Below, piece by piece: positions 2,258 to 14,676 of a stretch of DNA of 52,735 nt (position 1 is its first letter; each line of letters starts with the position of its first letter). Below the pieces are notes generated by a model. That model saw only the letters and a list, made by a program, of their open reading frames with translations. It did not search any database and was not told the DNA's origin. The stretch lies in the sequence record PZ662386.1; one strand, written 5' to 3'. The DNA is from a phage. A program made the position numbers and the translations under genes.

Positions 2258-2470
2258 ATGGCGGTTATCACTCGATTAGATGCCCGCTCACGCAAGAACA
2301 ACTCCTTCCAGATTCAAGATTTGGAAGGAAACATTTTATGTGTGATTGAGGCAGTTTCTACCACAGAGAGCGACTGTGTTAAGTTAAAGCACGAGTCAAA
2401 TCTGCGACTCCACACCTCCGACAACATTCAAATTGTTAAGGGTAATGGAACTATTCTAAGGAAGAAATAA
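2258..2470 (+). CDS. small head-tail joining protein (lambda gpW-like position)
   Basis: 70-aa ORF between terminase and portal, start and stop coupled by overlap (TAATG with portal); call by position only. Confidence 0.35.
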   Translation: MAVITRLDARSRKNNSFQIQDLEGNILCVIEAVSTTESDCVKLKHESNLRLHTSDNIQIVKGNGTILRKK

Positions 2471-3786
2471 TGACTTCCAAGAAGAAAAACAATCTTTCTG
2501 TTAAAGTTGCAGATGGGTTAGAAAACCTTGTAACAGGGTTGGGCGGTCAGGCAGATAAGTCCACCTTTAACCAGTGGACTTTCTCAAACAAGAACGCGAA
2601 CTATCGCGAACTTATGAACCGCTTCCGTGAGGATTGGGTGGCACAGAAGGTGTGTACCGTTATTCCTCAAGATATGACGCGTAAGTGGCGACATATTGAT
2701 AGTGAAGAAGGACGCAAAGCGGATAAGAAACTTCGTATTCGTAAGCTGTTCCGTGAAGCATATCAATGGGCCAGATTATATGGGACTTCATTTGTTCTGC
2801 TCGACCTAAAAGGTACGGGCAAACTTGATACACCATTGCGACTGGATAACTTGAAGACTGGATGTATTAAATCCATGAGAGTTATTGACCGCTCACGCTT
2901 ATTTGCCGCAGGGACTATGGTTCTGGACCCTTTGAGTCCTCACTATGGTTTGCCAGAGTATTACACTTTGGCTGGGTATCCCGGCTATATCCATTACACT
3001 CGTTTCCTCCGGTTCGAGGGTACTGAACTGCCGCTGTTCGAATTCCAACGTAACATGTGGTATTCTGATTCGGTACTTATTCCACTGCTGAAAACGATTG
3101 ACCAATTCTATACAACTGCTGCTGCTGCTGCCAGCCTTGCCCAAGAAGCCACCATTGATGTGGTAACTGTTGAAGGTCTACAATCGCTGCTTACATCACC
3201 AGAAGGTGAAGCTGCTGTGATGAAGCGCTTCAAACTTATGAAGCTGGCAAAGAGTATTTATAACGTCTTAATTCTCGACAATACTGAGAAGTATGACACC
3301 AAGTCAATTGCACTATCTGGTGTGAAAGATTTGATTTGGGAATACTTGAAGATAGTTGCTGCCGCAGTTGGTATTCCGGCTACACGTTTCCTTTCTGCAT
3401 CTCCGGACGGTATGAACGCTACGGGCGAATCTGACCTCGTAAACTATATCGACTTGTTGACTGGCTTGCAGACTTCTGTGTTCGACCCTCGTTTAGATGT
3501 GGTAGACAAGATTGTCCAAGCGCACTTTGGCATTGAAGAATATAACTACGAATGGTTAGACATCTTCCCTGAATCCAATGTTGAGAAAGCGAAGCGAGCT
3601 AAAGATTTGGCATTTGCTGTTGACCTGCTGGTTAACAACGGTACTATTACTACCGAAGTTGCAAACGAAGTCATGTTCCATTCGGGCGTGTTCGGAACTT
3701 GTGACCTTGGCAAACCAAATCCTAATCCACCTAACATCCAAAAGGGTAACGCAAGTGAAGCAAAACCAAAACCTGGTTCAGCTTAA
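2470..3786 (+). CDS. portal protein
   Basis: 438-aa ORF directly after terminase, RBS GGAAG, size and position typical of portal. Confidence 0.7.
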   Translation: MTSKKKNNLSVKVADGLENLVTGLGGQADKSTFNQWTFSNKNANYRELMNRFREDWVAQKVCTVIPQDMTRKWRHIDSEEGRKADKKLRIRKLFREAYQWARLYGTSFVLLDLKGTGKLDTPLRLDNLKTGCIKSMRVIDRSRLFAAGTMVLDPLSPHYGLPEYYTLAGYPGYIHYTRFLRFEGTELPLFEFQRNMWYSDSVLIPLLKTIDQFYTTAAAAASLAQEATIDVVTVEGLQSLLTSPEGEAAVMKRFKLMKLAKSIYNVLILDNTEKYDTKSIALSGVKDLIWEYLKIVAAAVGIPATRFLSASPDGMNATGESDLVNYIDLLTGLQTSVFDPRLDVVDKIVQAHFGIEEYNYEWLDIFPESNVEKAKRAKDLAFAVDLLVNNGTITTEVANEVMFHSGVFGTCDLGKPNPNPPNIQKGNASEAKPKPGSA

Positions 3787-4819
3787 CGACGAAGATACCG
3801 TGAATGAAGTAGTTTTGTTGAACGACAAGGCTACTTTAACGACCCGTCGTTTACGTGACTCTGGCGAAATGATTGCAGAATGCACCATCGCTCGTACTGG
3901 CATTATGCTGTACAAGGCAAAAGAGCTTGGTGAAATTGCAAAACATCTGGACCCAGAATCTATTTGCCGTGTTCGTACCAAGCCGGAAGTATTATTTGAC
4001 GAAGCAACTATTGAAGGCTGTCGTTCAATTCCGGTTACTATCGGCCATCCGAAAAATGATGTTAACATCAAGAACAACAAAGAACTCCAGAAAGGGTTCA
4101 TCGAAGGGCGTCCGGTTGCAGACGGTTCTTTCTTGGCTGCATCAATCGTTTTGAATGACGAGCAAGCTATTCGATTAGTTGATTCTGGTGTTGACCAAAT
4201 CTCCTTGGGCCATAATGCTGAACTGGCTGTATCAGAAGATGATGAAGCTGACTTCGATAAAGTTCGCATTATCCCTAACCATGCTGCAATTGTTGTTCGT
4301 GGTCGTGCTCAAACTACCCGCATTGGTGACTCTGGTGAAGAGATTGCCATTGTTGATAAGGCAACCTTTGACGTTGTTGAAGCAGAGCGTGATGCAGCGC
4401 TTGACAAGATTAGCGCCCTTGAGCAGAAACTTGCTGATGCAGAAACTGCACGACTATCCGATGAAGCTATTCAGGCTGAGGTAGACAAACGTGTGGTTGC
4501 TCGTACAGCGCTGCTTGTTGATGTGGCACGTCTTGGCGACGAGTTCTCCAACCTCGATTTCTCCGGCAAAACCGATGCAGAAATTAAGTTGGCTGTAGTT
4601 AATAAATTGCATGACAAGGATTTCAGCGATAAGAGCGAAGACTATATCTCCGCCCGTTTCGATGCGGCTCTTGAAGATTGCGATTCCATTACTTTGGGAG
4701 ATGCCCTGAATCAGTCTATGCAATTCTCTGCTAAGAAAGATTCAGAAGCTCGCAAACCTAAAGTTTCTATTTCCGAAGAAGCTAACAAACGTCGTTTAGA
4801 ACGCTTCAACTCTTTATAA
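3755..4819 (+). CDS. prohead protease / scaffolding protein (putative)
   Basis: Position between portal and capsid genes; C-terminal coiled-coil (ERDAALDKISALEQKLADAE); likely GTG start at 3755 with AGGG RBS; the ORF-track start at 3578 lies inside portal. Confidence 0.5.
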   Translation: MKQNQNLVQLNDEDTVNEVVLLNDKATLTTRRLRDSGEMIAECTIARTGIMLYKAKELGEIAKHLDPESICRVRTKPEVLFDEATIEGCRSIPVTIGHPKNDVNIKNNKELQKGFIEGRPVADGSFLAASIVLNDEQAIRLVDSGVDQISLGHNAELAVSEDDEADFDKVRIIPNHAAIVVRGRAQTTRIGDSGEEIAIVDKATFDVVEAERDAALDKISALEQKLADAETARLSDEAIQAEVDKRVVARTALLVDVARLGDEFSNLDFSGKTDAEIKLAVVNKLHDKDFSDKSEDYISARFDAALEDCDSITLGDALNQSMQFSAKKDSEARKPKVSISEEANKRRLERFNSL

Positions 4820-4828
4820 GGTAAGACA

Positions 4829-5302
4829 ATGCCAAAGCAAGATTGGTCTATTAATACTGGTGAAGCATATGCAGGTGAACAATATGGCCTGGCTACCACC
4901 AACTCCCAGCGCCTGACTTACGTTGCCGAAGAAGAAATGGCAAACTTTGGTCTGGCTGTTGTTCAGGGCACGGCCTCTAATCAGGTTAAACCTGGTATTG
5001 AAGCAGACGGCACTGTTCTGGGCATCACCATGCGCCAGATTAACATCGAATCTGCTACCCGTCCTGGCGACGGCACTGTTGCTATCAAAGTTGGCTGGCC
5101 TCTGGGCGTTATGCTGTCTGGCCCAATCATGGTCAAACTGGTAACTGCAATCACCGATAAAGACATTGGCGTATCTGCCACTGGTCAATTCGGTGGCGTT
5201 GGTGCTGGCTATACTAAAGCAACCAACCTGACTGCCCTGCGTTATCCGGCTGCTGCTGGTGATGTTGTTCCAGTCATGATTAACGTAGTCCCAAAGCCGT
5301 AA
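4829..5302 (+). CDS. head decoration protein (putative, lambda gpD position)
   Basis: 157-aa ORF immediately upstream of major capsid gene, strong RBS AAGGTAAG, highly biased codon usage. Confidence 0.45.
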   Translation: MPKQDWSINTGEAYAGEQYGLATTNSQRLTYVAEEEMANFGLAVVQGTASNQVKPGIEADGTVLGITMRQINIESATRPGDGTVAIKVGWPLGVMLSGPIMVKLVTAITDKDIGVSATGQFGGVGAGYTKATNLTALRYPAAAGDVVPVMINVVPKP

Positions 5303-5595
5303 CGCCACCTCCAGCTCCTACGGTGTCTGCTGTAGCAGGGACTGTAACTGCGGACGCATCTGCCTCTGATGCCACTGTAACTGTGGACAAGCTATTTAAG
5401 TTTGAGAACTCCGCAGCAACAGATTACAACTTCGCCGTTACTCCTGCTGTAGCTGGTGTTTCTGTGGCGGCAAACGGCACTGTGACTGTACTCAATGCAA
5501 CGACTACAGCCACTTCTGCGACAATCAAGGCAACAAATAAAACAGCATCTGGCGTAACTGCAACCAAAGAAATTACCATTACGCCGAAGGCTTAA
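5284..5595 (+). CDS. Ig-like (Big_2-like) C-terminal extension reachable by -1 frameshift from decoration gene
   Basis: -1 frame opens right after a stop at 5281-5283; slippery heptamer C_CCA_AAG at 5290-5296; Pro-rich linker TPPPAPT then Thr/Val/Ala-rich Ig-like sequence. Confidence 0.45.
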   Translation, partial: RSPKAVTPPPAPTVSAVAGTVTADASASDATVTVDKLFKFENSAATDYNFAVTPAVAGVSVAANGTVTVLNATTTATSATIKATNKTASGVTATKEITITPKA

Positions 5596-5603
5596 GTTGC
5601 ACT

Positions 5604-5624
5604 GGCGCAATTAATAGTTGCGCC
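5604..5624 (+). other. perfect 7-bp stem-loop (GGCGCAA / TTGCGCC) between decoration and capsid genes
   Basis: Inverted repeat with 7-nt loop seen directly; no T-run follows, so possibly a processing or stability element. Confidence 0.3.
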
Positions 5625-5650: not shown

Positions 5651-6658
5651 ATGCCAAAGATGATTAAACTGGCGGACGGTTCTGAATTCGAACTGAACGA
5701 CGCTATCACCCGTATTCAGGATTCTGGCACTGTTGTCCTGAATGACGACGATGCAGTATTCTTTCAACGCCAGCTTGAGTACATTGAAGCTAAAACTTAT
5801 GACACCCTGTATCCAGAATTGGAAGCTCGTGCAGCTTTCGGTGTGGATACTACTGGTGGTGCTGGCGTAAACACTCTGACCTACCGTTCTTACAACCATG
5901 TTGGTAAAGCACAGGTAATTAACGCTCGTGCAACCGACCTGCCGAAGTCCAGCATTTCTGGTAAAGAATACAGTATCCCTGTTAAATCTGTTGGTACTGC
6001 ATTCGACTACGATATTGATGAAGTGGCATCCGCTGCTGTTACTGGCCTCCCGCTGGAAACTCGTAAAGCAAATGCTGCTATTCGTGGTTATGAGCAGTAT
6101 GTTAACTCTGCTGCATGGTACGGCGATAAAGCTAACGGATTTGTTGGCTTCTTCGAAAACCCAGACATCACCAAAGCAACTGTTGCTCAGGGTGCTGGCG
6201 GTTCTACCAAGTGGGCCGAGAAGACCCCGACCGAAGTTATTGCTGACCTGACTGCTGCTGTGTCTGCAATGTATGCTTCTACTCTGAAAATCATGCGCCC
6301 AGACGAAATCTGGATGCCTGTTGAGCATGAGCAGTACATCTTCAACACTGCACGTTCTGAGCAGTCTGATAAGACGATTGGTCAATTCTTCATTGACAAC
6401 AACCAGTTCATCAACTCCCGTGACAAAATCAAGGGTCTGAACGCAATCAAAGGCCACGGCGATGCTGGTTCCGATTGCTTCGTCGTTGTTTGCCGCAATG
6501 CAATGGGCAACCGTACTTTCCGTCTGCGTGAACCTCTGCCGCTGACCTGGCAACCAGTACAGCTTCATGGTCTGGTTTATGAAGTTCCTGGCCGTGGTCG
6601 TTTCGCTGGCTTCCAAGCGATGTATCCGGCAGCAATCTCCATCAACTCCGGCATCTGA
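5651..6658 (+). CDS. major capsid protein (lambda gpE-like)
   Basis: 335-aa ORF after scaffold and decoration genes, very biased high-expression codon usage; alternative upstream start at 5618. Confidence 0.75.
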   Translation: MPKMIKLADGSEFELNDAITRIQDSGTVVLNDDDAVFFQRQLEYIEAKTYDTLYPELEARAAFGVDTTGGAGVNTLTYRSYNHVGKAQVINARATDLPKSSISGKEYSIPVKSVGTAFDYDIDEVASAAVTGLPLETRKANAAIRGYEQYVNSAAWYGDKANGFVGFFENPDITKATVAQGAGGSTKWAEKTPTEVIADLTAAVSAMYASTLKIMRPDEIWMPVEHEQYIFNTARSEQSDKTIGQFFIDNNQFINSRDKIKGLNAIKGHGDAGSDCFVVVCRNAMGNRTFRLREPLPLTWQPVQLHGLVYEVPGRGRFAGFQAMYPAAISINSGI

Positions 6659-10329: not shown

Positions 10330-10788
10330 ATGGCTTGTGAATTGCTTCAACGTGAATTCACAAACTCCAAAGGCGAAACAGTGTTAGTCGTTGTTCGACA
10401 ATTGTCGGCTTCGGCTGCACTGTCTCTTCACGCGGAGTTGGTAAGCAAGTTAGGCTCACGAGTATTTCCATTCATCGAAGGTAAATATAACTTCGCTGAT
10501 ATTATATACTTGATGCAGCAAGTAGAGCATACCGTATTCACAGAGTTGTTTAAGCGTGTTATCAGCATGCACTCGTCCATAGATGGACAAGAAATCAAAC
10601 CTGCATTATATGATATGCAGTTTAATGGCGAATTGATGTTGTCTTGCCATGTCTTTGCTTTCGTGCTCGAAGCAAACTTCCTTGATTTTTTCAAGCAAGG
10701 GCTCGAAATCAACGAACAGAGACGATTGGAGGCGGAGGAAGCATCCAAGCTGGCAGAGCAGAAGAATTCGAGTCCGGAGACAGTTTAG
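10330..10788 (+). CDS. tail assembly chaperone (short form)
   Basis: 152-aa ORF between tube and tape measure; contains slippery TTTTTTC. Confidence 0.6.
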   Translation: MACELLQREFTNSKGETVLVVVRQLSASAALSLHAELVSKLGSRVFPFIEGKYNFADIIYLMQQVEHTVFTELFKRVISMHSSIDGQEIKPALYDMQFNGELMLSCHVFAFVLEANFLDFFKQGLEINEQRRLEAEEASKLAEQKNSSPETV

Positions 10789-10964
10789 TATCCCTGTTCC
10801 CCGACATAAAATATTTTCTGCATCGTCCTATAATCGAAGACAGTTCTCTCTGCAAGTTACGTGAATTGCAAGATGGAACCTATTCGATTATGGACTTATT
10901 GCTATTCCACGACATTCTCGATTTGCGTAAGAAACTCGAACCAGTAGATGAAGACAATGGCTAA
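10686..10964 (+). CDS. tail assembly chaperone -1 frameshift extension (long form)
   Basis: -1 frame is open from the slippery heptamer T_TTT_TTC (10686-10692), directly after a -1-frame stop (10683-10685), to 10964, overlapping the tape-measure start. Confidence 0.5.
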   Translation, partial: FFQARARNQRTETIGGGGSIQAGRAEEFESGDSLVSLFPDIKYFLHRPIIEDSSLCKLRELQDGTYSIMDLLLFHDILDLRKKLEPVDEDNG

Positions 10965-13900
10965 TCAAAAAGATTTAATGAAGTTGGGCGTTAATGAATT
11001 AATTGCATTAGGCTCTCAAAGCGGTCTGACTTTCCATGCTGGTATGAAGAAGTCGCACATGGTTCAACAACTTAGTGCGAGCGCTGCTTCGGGATGGCTG
11101 GATACAAATGCAGAATTAATGGGTGGGTCATTTGAAGATGACAGTTTAATTACTGAATCTTTGGGTGACTCTTCCATGATTTCAGACGCTGCCCACATTG
11201 CACAAGTGCTTTCAAGTGCTGGCTACACAGAAGCATTTCATGCAGCAATGAATGGCCCATCACACCATGTAGAAGCTGTTCACGCATACATGGAAAGGCT
11301 TGGCGTTAGCACAGATGATGTGTGGATGCACATGCCAAAGCCAAATCCGAACCTGCCGCAAGGTAGCTTCAACATGCTTAATGCCTATATGCGAGATACT
11401 TTGCAAGGGCATCAAGATATTATGCCAGAAATCCCAGGTCATTATGCTGGTGATATTATGGCTGAATACTCCACCAACCGTGGAAACATTGCTGACTCCT
11501 ACAACTACATGGCTCACATGTATGTTGACCGTGAGCAATACAGCAATCATGAACAATACGCAAGAGACATTAGTCGAGTTGCCAAACGTCTGGAACGAGA
11601 GTTACCCTCAGCCTTTAAGGAAGTTGGGTATACATCCGCATCTAATGTAGGAAATAAATCGGCCCCACATATTTCTTACATGGATACACTCCCTCAAATT
11701 GGTTCTCCTTCAATTGTTTCCGGCATTGCACATCCTCGTGCACCTCTTAACGCATCTGGACTTCCTCTTGGTTCTTATGGTTCTGGCATAAATCCAGAAT
11801 ACTCCCTCACTGCATCACTAACTGGTGGCACAGGTTGGAGCGAACCAAGCAAGGCTTTGTATTCTTCTATTAGTGAAGCTGTTAAATCTGCTGCCAAAGT
11901 CTATTCTGGCCCCAAAGGGATGCTGAATACTCGTCACGAAGTATCTGACCGTGACATGATTATGGATAGTGCAACACGCTACACGGATTTGGAAGAAGCC
12001 CGAAGCGGATACGAAAACCTTCGTTCTGAACTTGCAGATGAGCCAGCTTATTCTGCATCAAGTGTTCGAGCTATTCTCGAAAACACTTACGATAAAATGG
12101 ATGCCGAACCTATCAGCATTCCGAAGATGAAGGGAGCTTCACAGCGAGTCGATAAAGATTCGCGGTCAACATCTACAGATTTTACAGCACAACTTGGAGA
12201 GGCCACCAATTGGAACTCTGCAAGAATGCGTCGCGAGGAACTTGCGATTGCAAATATGGATAGTGCTGGATTCCGTGATGTATCAGACTATGGTACAGGA
12301 CGTTCCGAGTCCCCCGTCCGATTCCATGACTTAGAACAGGGTAGCCAAGAGTGGCTGGACTTCCGTAAAAATTATGACATAACTGGCTCAACTGTTGGAA
12401 CCTTCTTAGGAAACAACCCTTACACCCGACCTTGGGCTGGGATGATTGATAAGATTGGTCTATCTCGTAGTAAGGAGCACAGCGATTTCACCAAAAAGAT
12501 GTTCGCTGATGGTCACAGGACGGAAGAAGAAGCACGCGCTCGTGTTGGTAAGGAATTTGGATTCGATATCAAACAAACTGGCGCTATAACAAATGACAAC
12601 TATCCCGCCTTCATGTATTCTCCTGATGGTCTTATTGGGGATGATGCCATTTGGGAGCACAAGAATCCGCAAAGGGCTGGTAAGTTTGCTGACCTTCTTA
12701 AAGGCGACCATCCAGACTACATGGACCAAATTCAATTTGGTTTGCACGTTTCTGGTCGTTCTCGTGCTTTGTTCTCACAAACCATCAACGACGAAACACG
12801 TTCACAATGGATTGAGAAGGACGAAGGATGGTACGAAAGAAACCGAAATCGCCTTGATTCTGTGCTTGGCCGTCTTGATGCTGGGCGAGAGTTTGTTAGA
12901 AACAATGCTGGATTAGAACGAGAAGAGCTAATTGCTGGTGCAAGAAGTGCAATGACTGGTGATGGAATCTGGAAAGATATTCGTCAAAGGTCTACTCGTG
13001 GTTATTCTGCTGCTGCGGGTACTCCAGAAGACCCGTTTATTGGTTCACGTTCTTCGTACAATCCGACACCATCTTACTCCGACTACCAACCAAACTTTGT
13101 AATGCACGAGCAAAACTTTCCTGCAACCACTGGAAATGGTGACACCGGAAATGACTCGATGGCATTGTCTGTTAAGAAGGGTATTCTTGCTGCTCAGGAA
13201 GAAAACAGGCAGAAGGGTATTGGTGCAGATGCAGACTTTGATGGCAAAGCCGATTCAATGGGCTGGAACCGTGAAAGATTTGATGCTGCCAATGGCGGTG
13301 GATATTCTGGAGGTGGTGGTGGTGGTCGTGGCGGCAACTTCACAAGTGGTGGCAACTACTACGATGACTACGGTCGCATGGGTGGTTCGTTAGCTGCTGG
13401 CATTGCTGGTGGCAGTATTGGTTCAGCAACCAACGGAGTTATGCAAGCATTGATGGCAACTCCTGCTGGACGTATGGCTGCTGTAGGCATTGGTGCTATT
13501 CAGATTGGCAATGAAGCTGCTGAATACATGAATGACTTTATCGGCAACTCGCTTGATGCTGGTGTGATAAATCCTAATGAATACTCCTCTATGTCGCAAG
13601 GCTTGGAGATGTTGGGACTCAACTCACAACAAGCGGCACGTCTGAATCAAACCACACATAGTGCCTACAACACCATGCTTAACGGCGACCCCAGCGCCGC
13701 TGTGAACATCGTTCGCGGCAGTAGGGGATTGCTCACCATAGGTGATATTCGTGCGACAGGCGGCGACCCTGTGGCCCTGGCTCGCATCATGCAGGAAAGG
13801 GGCAAGGAGCGTGGCTGGAGTCAGGCCCGTATCGCAGGTGCTGCCGAAATGGCTGGCCTACAGGGTATGGCGAGAGCATACGACCGCACGGAATACAGCC

Positions 13901-14676
13901 ATGAGCAAGCTGGCTCGGTGGTAGAAGCGGGTAGAAACTCCGACTTTGCCGAAGGTATGGCCCAATCGGAAATGTTGCAGGGAAGCCGCGCACGGATGCT
14001 GCCGAGCTATAACGTGCCACAAAGTGTCTTATCTAATGGTGCTCCAATCTTCGAAGCTGGAAGTGCTGCACTTGACGGTGCTCGTACTGGATACAATCAG
14101 GCTCGTGAATTTGCTGGAAGTGTTTATGACTTTATCGCTCAGGAAGAATCCGGTGGTCGTGAATACAACAAGGATGGTTCTCGTGTAATAAGTCGCACTG
14201 GTGCTCGTGGGATAATGCAGATTCTACCTTCGACTGCCCGTGACCCAGGATTTGGAATCAGGCCGTCTGATGGAACTCCGGAAGATGATGCACGAGTTGG
14301 TCGTGAATACTATGACGCAATGTACAAGCGTTATGGCGACCACGAGAAGGCAATGGCTGCTTACACCGATGGTCCTGGCACTGTTGACAAAGCTGTTGAT
14401 AAGAATGGGTTGGATTGGCTTACTGCTGTTCCTGCACAGGCACAGAATCGCGTCAAAGCATTCCGTGAATGGTCCAAGTCTTCTAAATCTTTGGAAGAAG
14501 GTGCTACAGGGTTTACTCGCAATGGAATGTCATACGGTCAAACCCAAACTGTTGTTAATGTTAAGATTGATGCTAAGGTCAACAACCAGACTGCTTCTGC
14601 TACAGTTGCAATTCCTGGTGGTCAGACTGTGACTCAACAAATGAACATGAACAACGGTGCGCAACAAAGACGTTAA
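10948..14676 (+). CDS. tape-measure-position protein with lambda-exonuclease/YqaJ-like nuclease domain and C-terminal SLT lytic transglycosylase domain
   Basis: Follows the frameshifted chaperone; motifs QGSQEWLDFRKNYDITGS and SPDGLIGDDAIWEHKNP (lambda exo type), Gly-rich linker, SLT-like EESGG...GARGIMQI; Rho_N-like N-terminus. Confidence 0.7.
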   Translation: MKTMANQKDLMKLGVNELIALGSQSGLTFHAGMKKSHMVQQLSASAASGWLDTNAELMGGSFEDDSLITESLGDSSMISDAAHIAQVLSSAGYTEAFHAAMNGPSHHVEAVHAYMERLGVSTDDVWMHMPKPNPNLPQGSFNMLNAYMRDTLQGHQDIMPEIPGHYAGDIMAEYSTNRGNIADSYNYMAHMYVDREQYSNHEQYARDISRVAKRLERELPSAFKEVGYTSASNVGNKSAPHISYMDTLPQIGSPSIVSGIAHPRAPLNASGLPLGSYGSGINPEYSLTASLTGGTGWSEPSKALYSSISEAVKSAAKVYSGPKGMLNTRHEVSDRDMIMDSATRYTDLEEARSGYENLRSELADEPAYSASSVRAILENTYDKMDAEPISIPKMKGASQRVDKDSRSTSTDFTAQLGEATNWNSARMRREELAIANMDSAGFRDVSDYGTGRSESPVRFHDLEQGSQEWLDFRKNYDITGSTVGTFLGNNPYTRPWAGMIDKIGLSRSKEHSDFTKKMFADGHRTEEEARARVGKEFGFDIKQTGAITNDNYPAFMYSPDGLIGDDAIWEHKNPQRAGKFADLLKGDHPDYMDQIQFGLHVSGRSRALFSQTINDETRSQWIEKDEGWYERNRNRLDSVLGRLDAGREFVRNNAGLEREELIAGARSAMTGDGIWKDIRQRSTRGYSAAAGTPEDPFIGSRSSYNPTPSYSDYQPNFVMHEQNFPATTGNGDTGNDSMALSVKKGILAAQEENRQKGIGADADFDGKADSMGWNRERFDAANGGGYSGGGGGGRGGNFTSGGNYYDDYGRMGGSLAAGIAGGSIGSATNGVMQALMATPAGRMAAVGIGAIQIGNEAAEYMNDFIGNSLDAGVINPNEYSSMSQGLEMLGLNSQQAARLNQTTHSAYNTMLNGDPSAAVNIVRGSRGLLTIGDIRATGGDPVALARIMQERGKERGWSQARIAGAAEMAGLQGMARAYDRTEYSHEQAGSVVEAGRNSDFAEGMAQSEMLQGSRARMLPSYNVPQSVLSNGAPIFEAGSAALDGARTGYNQAREFAGSVYDFIAQEESGGREYNKDGSRVISRTGARGIMQILPSTARDPGFGIRPSDGTPEDDARVGREYYDAMYKRYGDHEKAMAAYTDGPGTVDKAVDKNGLDWLTAVPAQAQNRVKAFREWSKSSKSLEEGATGFTRNGMSYGQTQTVVNVKIDAKVNNQTASATVAIPGGQTVTQQMNMNNGAQQRR

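What the first reader, a model, noticed from the sequence alone, without database searches (positions are those of the whole stretch)
5284..5595. Candidate -1 programmed frameshift fusing an Ig-like domain to the head decoration protein
The decoration ORF ends at 5302. The -1 frame opens right after its own stop (5281-5283) and runs to 5595. The slippery heptamer C_CCA_AAG (5290-5296) sits in the 16-nt overlap. The shifted product starts with a Pro-rich linker (TPPPAPT) and continues as a Thr/Val/Ala-rich Ig-like sequence. Frameshift-added Ig-like domains on phage structural proteins are a known theme.
Basis: partly seen in the sequence, partly recalled or inferred. Interest (0 to 1): 0.55.

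Follow-up and report, generated by a model that had tools for sequence, protein, structure and literature searches.

The report
Frameshift adds Ig domain to cement protein
This phage very probably makes two versions of its capsid cement (decoration) protein, a short one and, when the ribosome slips back one base at CCCAAAG, a longer one with an immunoglobulin-like domain; the trick is known for other phage proteins, but databases do not annotate it for this phage family.

Summary
ORF 4829-5302 encodes a capsid cement/decoration protein. The heptamer C_CCA_AAG (5290-5296) is in register, one codon before the stop. The -1 frame is open from 5284 to 5595. It encodes a Pro-rich linker and a confidently modelled Ig-like domain.

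The window is a phiEcoM-GJ1-like coliphage (Chaseviridae, subfamily Cleopatravirinae). One sequence alone is only suggestive; comparison decides it.
- In 23 of 32 distinct related junctions, NNC_CCA_AAR is kept in register with the stop 0-1 codon later. The preceding residue varies over six amino acids, always with a C-ending codon.
- The -1 ORFs have no usable start: no ATG (Myduc has one 33 codons from its end), only unconserved GTG/TTG, no convincing ribosome-binding site.
- Substitutions fall at third positions of the -1 frame, even in the linker.
- Relatives without the Ig ORF lack the heptamer.
- The Ig module is swapped between phages whose cement proteins are 94% identical.

Best explanation: a programmed -1 ribosomal frameshift gives a 255-aa, 25.8-kDa cement-Ig fusion as a minority product. 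No conserved RNA stimulator was found; the adjacent stop codon may help. This is a new member of a known kind. No inspected GenBank record annotates it, and no paper found describes it. No protein-level evidence exists.

The parts
4829..5302 (+). Capsid cement (decoration) gene, 0-frame product of 157 aa and 16.3 kDa
   Evidence: Pfam Phage_cement PF22758, E 1.4e-16. PHROG 563, head and packaging. AlphaFold model with pLDDT 82 matches the Pam3 capsid cement chain 8hdt_G (TM 0.70) and the T1, HFTV1, XM1, TW1 and phi29 gp8.5-base decoration proteins. Gene order is protease/scaffold, cement, major capsid protein.
5281..5283 (+). TAA in the -1 frame; upstream limit of the 16-nt overlap in which a shift can be productive
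5290..5296 (+). Slippery heptamer C_CCA_AAG, the -1 frameshift site
   Evidence: In register. Invariant as NNC_CCA_AAR in 23 of 32 distinct related junctions, with six different preceding amino acids that all use C-ending codons. Best -1 heptamer in E. coli: 0.48% alone, 4.7% with the IS911 stimulators, 54% with the IS3 pseudoknot (PMC4066793).
5300..5302 (+). 0-frame stop codon TAA, one codon after the heptamer; ends the short product and may stimulate the shift
   Evidence: The stop lies 0 or 1 codon after the heptamer in every heptamer-bearing relative, and is sometimes doubled as TAGTAG. A stop in the same position is needed for frameshifting in pea enation mosaic virus (PMC5009743). A stimulatory role here is inferred.
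5296..5319 (+). Pro-rich linker (AVTPPPAP) in the -1 frame; base 5296 is read twice
   Evidence: Conserved as protein while third codon positions vary. In the first 16 codons, differences at positions 1/2/3 are 98/92/409. It lies upstream of every possible start codon.
5320..5592 (+). Ig-like beta-sandwich domain in the -1 frame
   Evidence: AlphaFold pLDDT 94, nine strands. Foldseek PDB: T5 pb6 Ig-like domain E 2e-4 and TM 0.63; also phi29 gp8, invasin and a Rib domain. PHROG 13745, E 1.5e-7. Distant homologues are repeats in giant proteins and the C-terminal domain of a protein with weak, sub-threshold Pfam matches to phage tail tube families. Substitutions fall at codon position 3: 1205/925/3888.
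5593..5595 (+). TAA stop of the -1 frame; end of the 255-aa fusion, CDS join(4829..5296,5296..5595)
5318..5335 (+). Small hairpin (7 pairs, 4-nt loop) 21 nt after the heptamer; doubtful as a stimulator
   Evidence: RNAalifold consensus over 11 relatives. Two pairs show compensatory changes but 2-3 sequences break them, and the covariation term is +0.44 (unfavourable). The spacing is longer than the usual 5-9 nt. z-scores of the downstream folds are modest and the structures differ between lineages.

Best explanation
The capsid cement (decoration) gene is decoded in two ways. Most ribosomes read ...GTC CCA AAG CCG and stop at TAA (5300-5302). This gives the 157-aa cement protein.

A minority of ribosomes slip back one base while tRNA-Pro and tRNA-Lys sit on C_CCA_AAG (5290-5296). 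The tRNAs re-pair with CCC and AAA. These ribosomes then read GCC GTA ACG CCA... in the -1 frame as far as 5595. The result is a 255-aa protein: the complete cement domain, a Pro-rich linker, and an Ig-like domain.

Both forms share the capsid-binding domain. The long form should therefore co-assemble into the capsid at a low, fixed ratio and display a few Ig-like domains on the head surface. There they would plausibly make weak contacts with carbohydrates on cells or in mucus.

What is shown: the sequence anatomy, the cement and Ig-like folds, and the evolutionary signature of recoding. What is inferred: the slip itself, its efficiency, a stimulatory role for the adjacent stop codon, incorporation into virions, and the adhesive function.
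For: 1. Anatomy. The heptamer is in register, one codon before the stop, and a 103-codon -1 ORF bridges the junction.

2. Motif strength. C_CC.A_AA.G is the most efficient -1 heptamer in E. coli (PMC4066793).

3. Nucleotide-level conservation. 23 of 32 distinct cement junctions keep NNC_CCA_AAR in register. They come from isolates of Escherichia, Yersinia, Erwinia, Pantoea, Pectobacterium, Dickeya and Aeromonas phages and from metagenome contigs, with cement identity down to 57%. The preceding codon is GTC, GGC, GCC, CTC, ATC or TCC: six amino acids, always ending in C. The product of the window's own codon-usage fractions for these codons is about 3e-5. In the global protein database, 69 of 91 cement homologues end in PK or PKx.

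4. No independent start. No -1 ORF contains an ATG except Myduc, whose only ATG lies 33 codons from the end. GTG and TTG positions are not conserved, and at most 4-5-nt matches to the Shine-Dalgarno consensus precede them. In five of the lineages (L014, L016, L017, L023, L024) the first possible start lies 89-167 nt past the stop, which would truncate the domain. Gene callers and GenBank submitters disagree on the start or leave the 300 nt unannotated.

5. Coding signature. Differences concentrate at position 3 of the -1 frame across the extension and also in the linker just after the heptamer.

6. Co-occurrence. Fifteen lineages without an Ig ORF lack the heptamer. One of them has a cement protein 89% identical to the window's.

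7. Cassette exchange at the junction. Y2 and Farigoule have cement proteins 94% identical but extensions 21% identical. The window and Y2 have cement 57% identical but extensions 74% identical. Unrelated Ig modules all use the same slip site and linker. One extension type matches Pfam Ig_2 above threshold, and the window's type resembles group-2 bacterial Ig-like (Big_2) domains by fold.

8. Precedent. Ig-like C-terminal extensions made by frameshifting are known for T3, Lactobacillus phage A2 and Listeria phages (PMC5009743).
Against: - There is no protein-level evidence. No virion proteomics for this family could be found or read.
- No conserved stimulatory RNA structure sits at the canonical 5-9 nt spacing, and there is no upstream Shine-Dalgarno-like element.
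- The bare heptamer gave only 0.48% in a reporter. The long form could therefore be very rare, perhaps a couple of copies per capsid.
- Proteus phage Myduc has an Ig-like -1 ORF but only the tetramer A_AAG next to TAA (GCA_AAG_TAA), not the heptamer.
- RefSeq curators annotate the downstream ORF as a separate 'Ig domain containing protein'.
- One metagenome contig (L053) keeps the heptamer but has a -1 frame of only 15 codons.
Confidence: 0.87

Rival explanations
1. The downstream ORF is an ordinary separate gene. It would be translated from GTG 5323, or another internal GTG/TTG, into a free Ig-like protein of about 90 aa that binds the capsid by itself, as T4 Hoc does.
For: Several GenBank and RefSeq records annotate it this way. 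A GTG exists at 5323. Gene callers produce ORFs of 70-91 aa.
Against: GTG 5323 is absent in close relatives such as L010-L014. No ATG is present in any lineage except one near the 3' end in Myduc. No convincing ribosome-binding site precedes any candidate. In five of the lineages (L014, L016, L017, L023, L024) the first start codon would delete a third to two thirds of the domain. The Pro-rich linker upstream of all candidate starts evolves as protein in the -1 frame. A single Ig domain has no separate capsid-binding part. The heptamer would have no reason to be conserved or to co-occur with the ORF.
Confidence: 0.05
2. The fusion is made at the RNA level, by RNA polymerase slippage that deletes or adds a base at CCCAAAG, rather than by the ribosome.
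For: It would give the same fused protein. Transcriptional slippage is used by some phages and insertion sequences (PMC5009743, the review read).
Against: The runs are only C3 and A3. By general knowledge, productive slippage needs homopolymers of roughly seven or more bases. The conserved pattern is the two-tRNA re-pairing pattern X_XXY_YYZ in a fixed register, which matters to ribosomes and not to polymerases.
Confidence: 0.02
3. Ribosomes that terminate at TAA 5300-5302 reinitiate nearby in the -1 frame (termination-reinitiation coupling). This would give a separate Ig protein without a ribosome-binding site.
For: The stop codon always lies next to the start of the -1 coding region. Coupled restarts are common in phage operons (general knowledge).
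Against: There is no start codon within reach of the stop in most lineages; the nearest is 23-167 nt away and is not conserved. The linker codons between the stop and any start are protein-constrained. This model does not explain the heptamer.
Confidence: 0.03
4. The -1 ORF is a decaying remnant or a chance open frame, and the heptamer is there only because the protein ends in Pro-Lys.
For: CCCAAAG occurs at chance frequency in the window. Some lineages have lost the ORF.
Against: There is strong purifying selection in the -1 frame: 2811 synonymous against 1642 non-synonymous codon differences, with a position-3 excess. The fold is modelled confidently. The C before CCA is conserved across six different amino acids. 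Intact modules are exchanged repeatedly.
Confidence: 0.02

Closest known systems
Lactobacillus phage A2 major head protein (gp5A/5B) and coliphage T3 gene 10A/10B: -1 frameshift that adds a C-terminal Ig-like extension
   Same: A -1 ribosomal frameshift near the 3' end of an abundant capsid gene yields a minority product with an Ig-like C-terminal extension that co-assembles with the short form (PMC5009743). From memory, and not checked here, the A2 site is C_CCA_AAA, almost the same heptamer.
   Different: In those phages the carrier is the major capsid protein. Here it is an auxiliary cement/decoration protein of the Pam3 gp6 / E217 gp24 family. No stimulatory stem-loop is evident here, and the stop codon sits 0-1 codon after the site.
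Phage lambda G/GT tail assembly chaperone frameshift (G_GGA_AAG)
   Same: An X_XXA_AAG heptamer decoded by the shift-prone tRNA-Lys, close to the end of the upstream ORF. G_GGA_AAG and C_CCA_AAG are named together as highly shift-prone in E. coli (PMC5009743). From general knowledge, lambda needs no strong RNA structure and makes a fixed low ratio of long product.
   Different: The lambda product is a non-virion assembly chaperone. Here the product is expected to be a virion surface protein. The window seems to have its own G/GT-type site at 10686-10692.
Listeria phages A118, A500 and PSA: capsid and tail proteins with frameshift extensions
   Same: Recoding at the 3' end of major structural genes gives C-terminally extended virion proteins (PMC5009743).
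   Different: The direction varies (+1 in PSA), the carrier proteins differ, and the hosts are Gram-positive.
Decoration proteins that carry display domains in frame: T5 pb10, T4 Hoc, phi29 head fibre gp8.5
   Same: Capsid decoration proteins that expose Ig-like or fibrous domains on the head surface. The base of phi29 gp8.5 is a structural match to this cement protein.
   Different: In those proteins every copy carries the display domain, because it is in frame or the whole protein is a separate gene. Here only the frameshifted fraction would carry it.
Pam3 gp6 / E217 gp24 structural cement proteins (Pfam PF22758)
   Same: Sequence-family member and best structural match (8hdt_G, TM 0.70).
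   Different: Pfam PF22758 is described simply as a structural cement protein. I found no report of a recoded extension on cement proteins in the papers searched.

Membership tests
Programmed -1 ribosomal frameshift site (heptamer type) | X_XXY_YYZ heptamer in the 0-frame register, inside the overlap of the two frames | tested here: met
   C_CCA_AAG at 5290-5296, register confirmed; it is the only such heptamer in the ORF.
Programmed -1 ribosomal frameshift site (heptamer type) | Heptamer conserved at nucleotide level in relatives, beyond what the protein sequence requires | tested here: met
   23 of 32 distinct junctions keep it. The preceding codon always ends in C across six different amino acids. 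CCA is always used for Pro, although it makes up 41% of Pro codons in the window.
Programmed -1 ribosomal frameshift site (heptamer type) | The downstream -1 ORF is protein-coding from the shift site onward and has no initiation signal of its own | tested here: met
   Excess of position-3 differences, including in the linker. No ATG apart from one near the 3' end in Myduc, only unconserved GTG/TTG, and at most 4-5-nt Shine-Dalgarno-like matches.
Programmed -1 ribosomal frameshift site (heptamer type) | Stimulatory element: RNA hairpin or pseudoknot 5-9 nt downstream, or an upstream Shine-Dalgarno-like sequence | tested here: inconclusive
   No conserved structure at canonical spacing. Hairpins are lineage-specific, with z-scores from about +0.3 to -4.9. 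A weak consensus hairpin lies 21 nt downstream. There is no Rfam match. A 0-frame stop 0-1 codon downstream is universally conserved and has a precedent as a stimulator.
Programmed -1 ribosomal frameshift site (heptamer type) | The trans-frame protein is detected | not testable with these tools
   No proteomic data were found. The phiEcoM-GJ1 and Y2 papers are not held in the library. The ST32 and PP101 papers contain none of the searched terms (frameshift, mass spectrometry).
Phage_cement (Pfam PF22758; E217 gp24 / Pam3 gp6) | Score above the Pfam gathering threshold over the full domain | tested here: met
   61.4 bits against a cut-off of 27; residues 4-152 match profile positions 4-146 of 146.
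Phage_cement (Pfam PF22758; E217 gp24 / Pam3 gp6) | Fold of a capsid decoration/cement protein | tested here: met
   Foldseek: Pam3 capsid chain 8hdt_G at E 1.3e-5 and TM 0.70; also T1, HFTV1, FCWL1, XM1 and TW1 decoration proteins. A sequence profile alone found no PDB entry.
Phage_cement (Pfam PF22758; E217 gp24 / Pam3 gp6) | Located on the outer capsid surface with an exposed C-terminus | not testable with these tools
   Only a monomer model is available. The last 5-7 residues have lower confidence.
Ig-like domains of phage structural proteins (Big_2 / I-set classes) | Match to a Pfam Ig-like family above threshold | tested here: not met
   The window's extension has no Pfam hit. The extension of lineage L018 reaches Ig_2 at 28.2 bits against 27. 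The others are sub-threshold Ig_3 or Big_2 matches.
Ig-like domains of phage structural proteins (Big_2 / I-set classes) | Ig-like beta-sandwich fold similar to known phage Ig-like domains | tested here: met
   pLDDT 94. Matches the T5 pb6 C-terminal domain (E 2e-4), phi29 gp8, invasin, Rib and cadherin/Ig domains. PHROG 13745 at E 1.5e-7.
Independent gene (rival model) | Conserved start codon with a ribosome-binding site | tested here: not met
   Annotated starts also disagree between records.

The most novel reading that the evidence does not exclude
The slip site plus Pro-rich linker may act as a conserved docking point for interchangeable surface-display cassettes. Unrelated modules are swapped behind the same CCCAAAG, even within one phage species: Big_2-like, I-set-like, tandem duplicates, and possibly a 214-aa domain in contig L053. 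Frameshifting may be driven only by the heptamer and the adjacent 0-frame stop codon, with no RNA structure. That would give each capsid a few copies of an exchangeable adhesin.
Probability: 0.35. Interest if true: 0.6.

Novelty: new member of a known kind. Interest (0 to 1): 0.45.

Why it matters
- Annotation. It would correct more than a hundred Chaseviridae genomes. In the records inspected, the roughly 300 nt between the cement and major capsid genes are either left blank or called as a small gene with an arbitrary start.
- A new carrier. It adds a cement/decoration protein to the list of phage structural proteins that receive an Ig-like domain by recoding. Until now that list was mainly major capsid and major tail proteins.
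- A natural experiment. The family shows module exchange at a recoding site and frameshifting without an obvious RNA stimulator.
- Practical use. These lytic phages are being developed against E. coli, Erwinia, Pectobacterium and Yersinia. A low-copy surface Ig domain may affect adherence to mucus or plant surfaces and immunogenicity. The site could also serve as a built-in low-valency display position.

Tried and rejected
- In-frame cement-Ig fusions. All 91 cement homologues found are 145-178 aa and none carries an Ig domain. The longer ones (P0005, P0042, P0052, P0062) have only short Ala/Pro tails, and the capsid gene follows directly. This 'Rosetta stone' support was therefore not obtained.
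- Stimulatory RNA. Single-sequence folds, RNAalifold and Rfam gave no conserved element at canonical spacing. I treat the hairpin at 5318-5335 as doubtful.
- Terminator or promoter between the two ORFs. No promoter-like site was found. The only terminator-like hit (5246-5259) is within chance expectation.
- Literature. Ten look-ups found no description of this frameshift in Chaseviridae and no virion proteomics. The phiEcoM-GJ1 and Y2 genome papers are not held.
- Modelling the whole fusion.
- PDB sequence-profile search with the cement alignment found nothing. The fold search succeeded instead.
- The metagenome scan added few new lineages.
- Stop-codon readthrough is rejected. The 0 frame after TAA hits TAG ten codons later, and the +1 frame is open for only 26 codons.
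Full report
**What the window is.** The region is 91-95% identical over 1.1 kb to phiEcoM-GJ1-like coliphages (BSBP01, Bp7, ST32, phiEcoM-GJ1). These belong to the family Chaseviridae, subfamily Cleopatravirinae, genus Carltongylesvirus. The local gene order is:
- portal, 2470-3786;
- protease/scaffold, 3578-4819 (Pfam DUF2213);
- the ORF in question, 4829-5302;
- a stretch of about 300 nt;
- major capsid protein, ATG at 5651, ending at 6658 (Pfam Major_capside).

**Checking the observation.**
- ORF 4829-5302 encodes 157 aa ending ...INVVPKP and stops at TAA 5300-5302.
- The -1 frame has TAA at 5281-5283 and is then open for 103 codons up to the TAA at 5593-5595.
- CCCAAAG at 5290-5296 lies as GT[C CCA AAG] CCG TAA, which is the X_XXY_YYZ register. 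It is the only in-register heptamer of that kind in the ORF.
- A -1 slip gives ...VVPK-AVTPPPAPTVSAVAGTVTADAS..., a product of 255 aa and 25.8 kDa. The short form is 16.3 kDa.

On its own the motif is not remarkable: it occurs 7 times in the window against 6.5 expected. My rough estimate is that an in-register slippery heptamer in a 16-nt overlap arises by chance at about 0.15-1.6% of gene junctions. The case therefore has to be made by comparison with relatives.

**What the two parts are.**

*Upstream ORF.* It matches Pfam Phage_cement (E217 gp24 / Pam3 gp6) at 61.4 bits against a threshold of 27, over the full profile. It also matches a head-and-packaging PHROG. An AlphaFold model (pLDDT 82) matches the cement chain of the cyanophage Pam3 capsid best (8hdt_G, TM 0.70). 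Next come decoration proteins of T1, HFTV1, FCWL1, XM1 and TW1, and the base of the phi29 head fibre. 'Head decoration protein' is therefore correct.

*Extension.* It has no Pfam hit but matches PHROG 13745, 'Ig domain containing protein', at E 1.5e-7. Its AlphaFold model is an all-beta sandwich with pLDDT 94. The best PDB matches are the Ig-like domain of the T5 tail tube protein pb6 (E 2e-4, TM 0.63), the Ig-like domain of the phi29 capsid protein, invasin, and a Rib domain.

*Distant relatives of the extension.* A full HMMER scan finds two kinds:
- repeats in giant proteins, with 34 copies in one 5070-aa protein;
- a C-terminal domain next to a Big_2 domain in a protein with weak, sub-threshold Pfam matches to phage tail tube families.

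**Comparative test of the frameshift.** I collected the junction from 43 loci, which gave 32 distinct sequences. They came from IMG/VR and GenBank. Further loci came from a metagenome scan and from contig look-ups.

1. *Heptamer conservation.* 23 of the 32 distinct junctions have NNC_CCA_AAG (once AAA) in register, with the 0-frame stop 0 or 1 codon later. The cement proteins of these loci are as little as 57% identical to the window's.
   - They cover Carltongylesvirus, Loessnervirus (Y2, SSEM1, Fifi451, EaPF9, Farigoule, Mauresque), PM1, Faunus, 4HA13, Aeromonas phiA050 and uncultured contigs.
   - The residue before Pro-Lys is V, G, A, L, I or S, always with the C-ending codon. Using the window's codon usage, the product of those fractions is about 3e-5.
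   - Among 91 cement homologues in the protein database, 69 end in PK or PKx.

2. *No usable start in the -1 ORF.*
   - No lineage has an ATG, except Myduc, where the only ATG lies 33 codons from the end.
   - GTG and TTG codons are at non-conserved positions, preceded by at most 4-5-nt matches to the Shine-Dalgarno consensus.
   - GTG 5323 of the window is missing in L010-L014.
   - In five of the lineages (L014, L016, L017, L023, L024) the first candidate start is 89-167 nt past the stop, inside the domain.
   - Accordingly, annotators place the start at three different positions or leave the region empty. Predicted proteins in the database are 70-91 aa long.

3. *Coding signature.* Among 13 phages with the window-type extension, pairwise differences at codon positions 1/2/3 of the -1 frame are 1205/925/3888. 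In the first 16 codons, which cover the heptamer and the linker and lie upstream of any start, they are 98/92/409. The linker is therefore translated in the -1 frame.

4. *Co-occurrence.* Lineages without an Ig ORF lack the heptamer.
   - These are L025, the Shewanella and Aeromonas chaseviruses and more distant loci L029-L035, four contigs with short Ala/Pro tails, and L057-L059.
   - One of them (P0005/L047) has a cement protein 89% identical to the window's but reads TCC AAA GGT at the site.

5. *Exceptions.*
   - Proteus phage Myduc has a 123-codon Ig-like -1 ORF behind GCA_AAG_TAA. That is only the A_AAG tetramer next to a stop. A_AA.G is the best tetramer in E. coli.
   - Contig L053 keeps the heptamer and linker but leaves the -1 frame after 15 codons. 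A 214-aa ORF then follows in the 0 frame. This may be an indel in the contig or a different module.

**Module exchange.** The extension does not follow the phylogeny of the cement protein.

| Pair | Cement identity | Extension identity |
|---|---|---|
| Y2 vs Farigoule (same species) | 94% | 21% |
| EaPF9 vs Fifi451 | 94% | 26% |
| window vs Y2 | 57% | 74% |

One extension type reaches the Pfam Ig_2 threshold, and others give weak Ig_3 or Big_2 matches. JL1, flopper and L048 carry two tandem linker-Ig copies. Different cassettes thus sit behind the same slip site and Pro-rich linker.

**Mechanism.** C_CC.A_AA.G is the most efficient -1 heptamer measured in E. coli. It gives 0.48% alone, 4.7% with the IS911 stimulators and 54% with the IS3 pseudoknot. 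It is also under-represented in frame in E. coli genes (z = -4.9) (PMC4066793).

I found no conserved stimulator.
- Folds of the 70-90 nt downstream differ between lineages and have modest z-scores.
- The consensus for the window's lineage is a 7-pair hairpin 21 nt downstream (5318-5335). It shows some compensatory changes but also broken pairs, and its covariation term is unfavourable.
- Rfam finds nothing.
- No Shine-Dalgarno-like sequence lies upstream of the heptamer.

The one context feature kept everywhere is the 0-frame stop 0-1 codon after the heptamer, sometimes doubled. A stop in exactly that position is required for frameshifting in pea enation mosaic virus (PMC5009743). I therefore infer, without proof, that slow termination helps the slip, and that the long form is a minor product.

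**Rivals.**
- Independent initiation, termination-reinitiation and a decaying ORF are all contradicted by points 1-4 above.
- Transcriptional slippage is unlikely on runs of only three bases.
- Readthrough is excluded, because the 0 frame hits TAG ten codons after the stop.

**Comparison with what is known.** Ig-like C-terminal extensions made by frameshifting are an established theme. Examples are T3 gene 10, Lactobacillus phage A2, and Listeria phages A118, A500 and PSA (PMC5009743). Two things are new here:
- the carrier is a cement protein of the Pam3 gp6 / E217 gp24 family;
- the phage group is the subfamily Cleopatravirinae of Chaseviridae.

None of the 11 GenBank records I inspected annotates a frameshift. 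No paper in the searchable library that names Chaseviridae or its genera mentions one in this gene. Two key genome papers could not be read, so prior mention cannot be fully excluded.

**Verdict.** My confidence that the fusion is made by -1 ribosomal frameshifting is about 0.87. It is a new member of a known kind, of moderate interest. Its value lies in correcting annotation, in the clear cassette exchange at a recoding site, and in an apparently structure-independent, stop-adjacent slip site that can be tested directly.

Noticed in passing
window 10330-10961 (heptamer at 10686-10692): T_TTT_TTC is in register with ORF 10330-10788, the gene just upstream of the tape measure gene (10948-14676). 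The -1 frame stays open for 92 codons to 10961. This looks like the usual tail assembly chaperone G/GT-type -1 frameshift.
   Followed up: partly
window 5604-5624: A 7-bp hairpin (GGCGCAA-ttaatag-TTGCGCC) lies between the end of the Ig ORF and the capsid gene ATG at 5651. It has no T-run, so it is not a typical terminator. It could be an RNA processing or stability element.
   Followed up: no
L003 (JL1), L004/L014 (flopper), L048: Some close relatives carry two tandem copies of linker plus Ig domain in the -1 ORF (197 codons). This is a recent duplication of the cassette.
   Followed up: partly
L053 1466-2164 (contig OGVK01000246.1): The heptamer and Pro-rich linker are kept, but the -1 frame ends after 15 codons. 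A 214-aa ORF with no Pfam match follows in the 0 frame, which is open from the cement stop codon onward. This is either an indel in the contig or a different, larger module at the same place.
   Followed up: partly
L028 / L042 (Proteus phage Myduc) junction: The junction reads GCA_AAG_TAA followed by a 123-codon Ig-like -1 ORF. Only the A_AAG tetramer next to a stop is present, not the full heptamer. This may be a single-tRNA slip variant of the same device.
   Followed up: partly
L057, P0071, P0074: These cement proteins end ...ALPKAAAAPSA*. The Pro-Lys and an Ala/Pro linker are now in frame 0 and no Ig ORF follows. They look like remnants left after loss of the cassette.
   Followed up: no
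GenBank PP952070.1 (hit H21): A record named 'Staphylococcus phage Pel53' (host Staphylococcus hyicus) is 88.7% identical over this 1.1-kb region to the coliphage group. The host label seems doubtful.
   Followed up: no
P0107: A 5070-aa protein contains 34 repeats related to the window's Ig-like module. The module therefore also occurs as a repeat unit in giant proteins, which I presume to be bacterial surface proteins.
   Followed up: no
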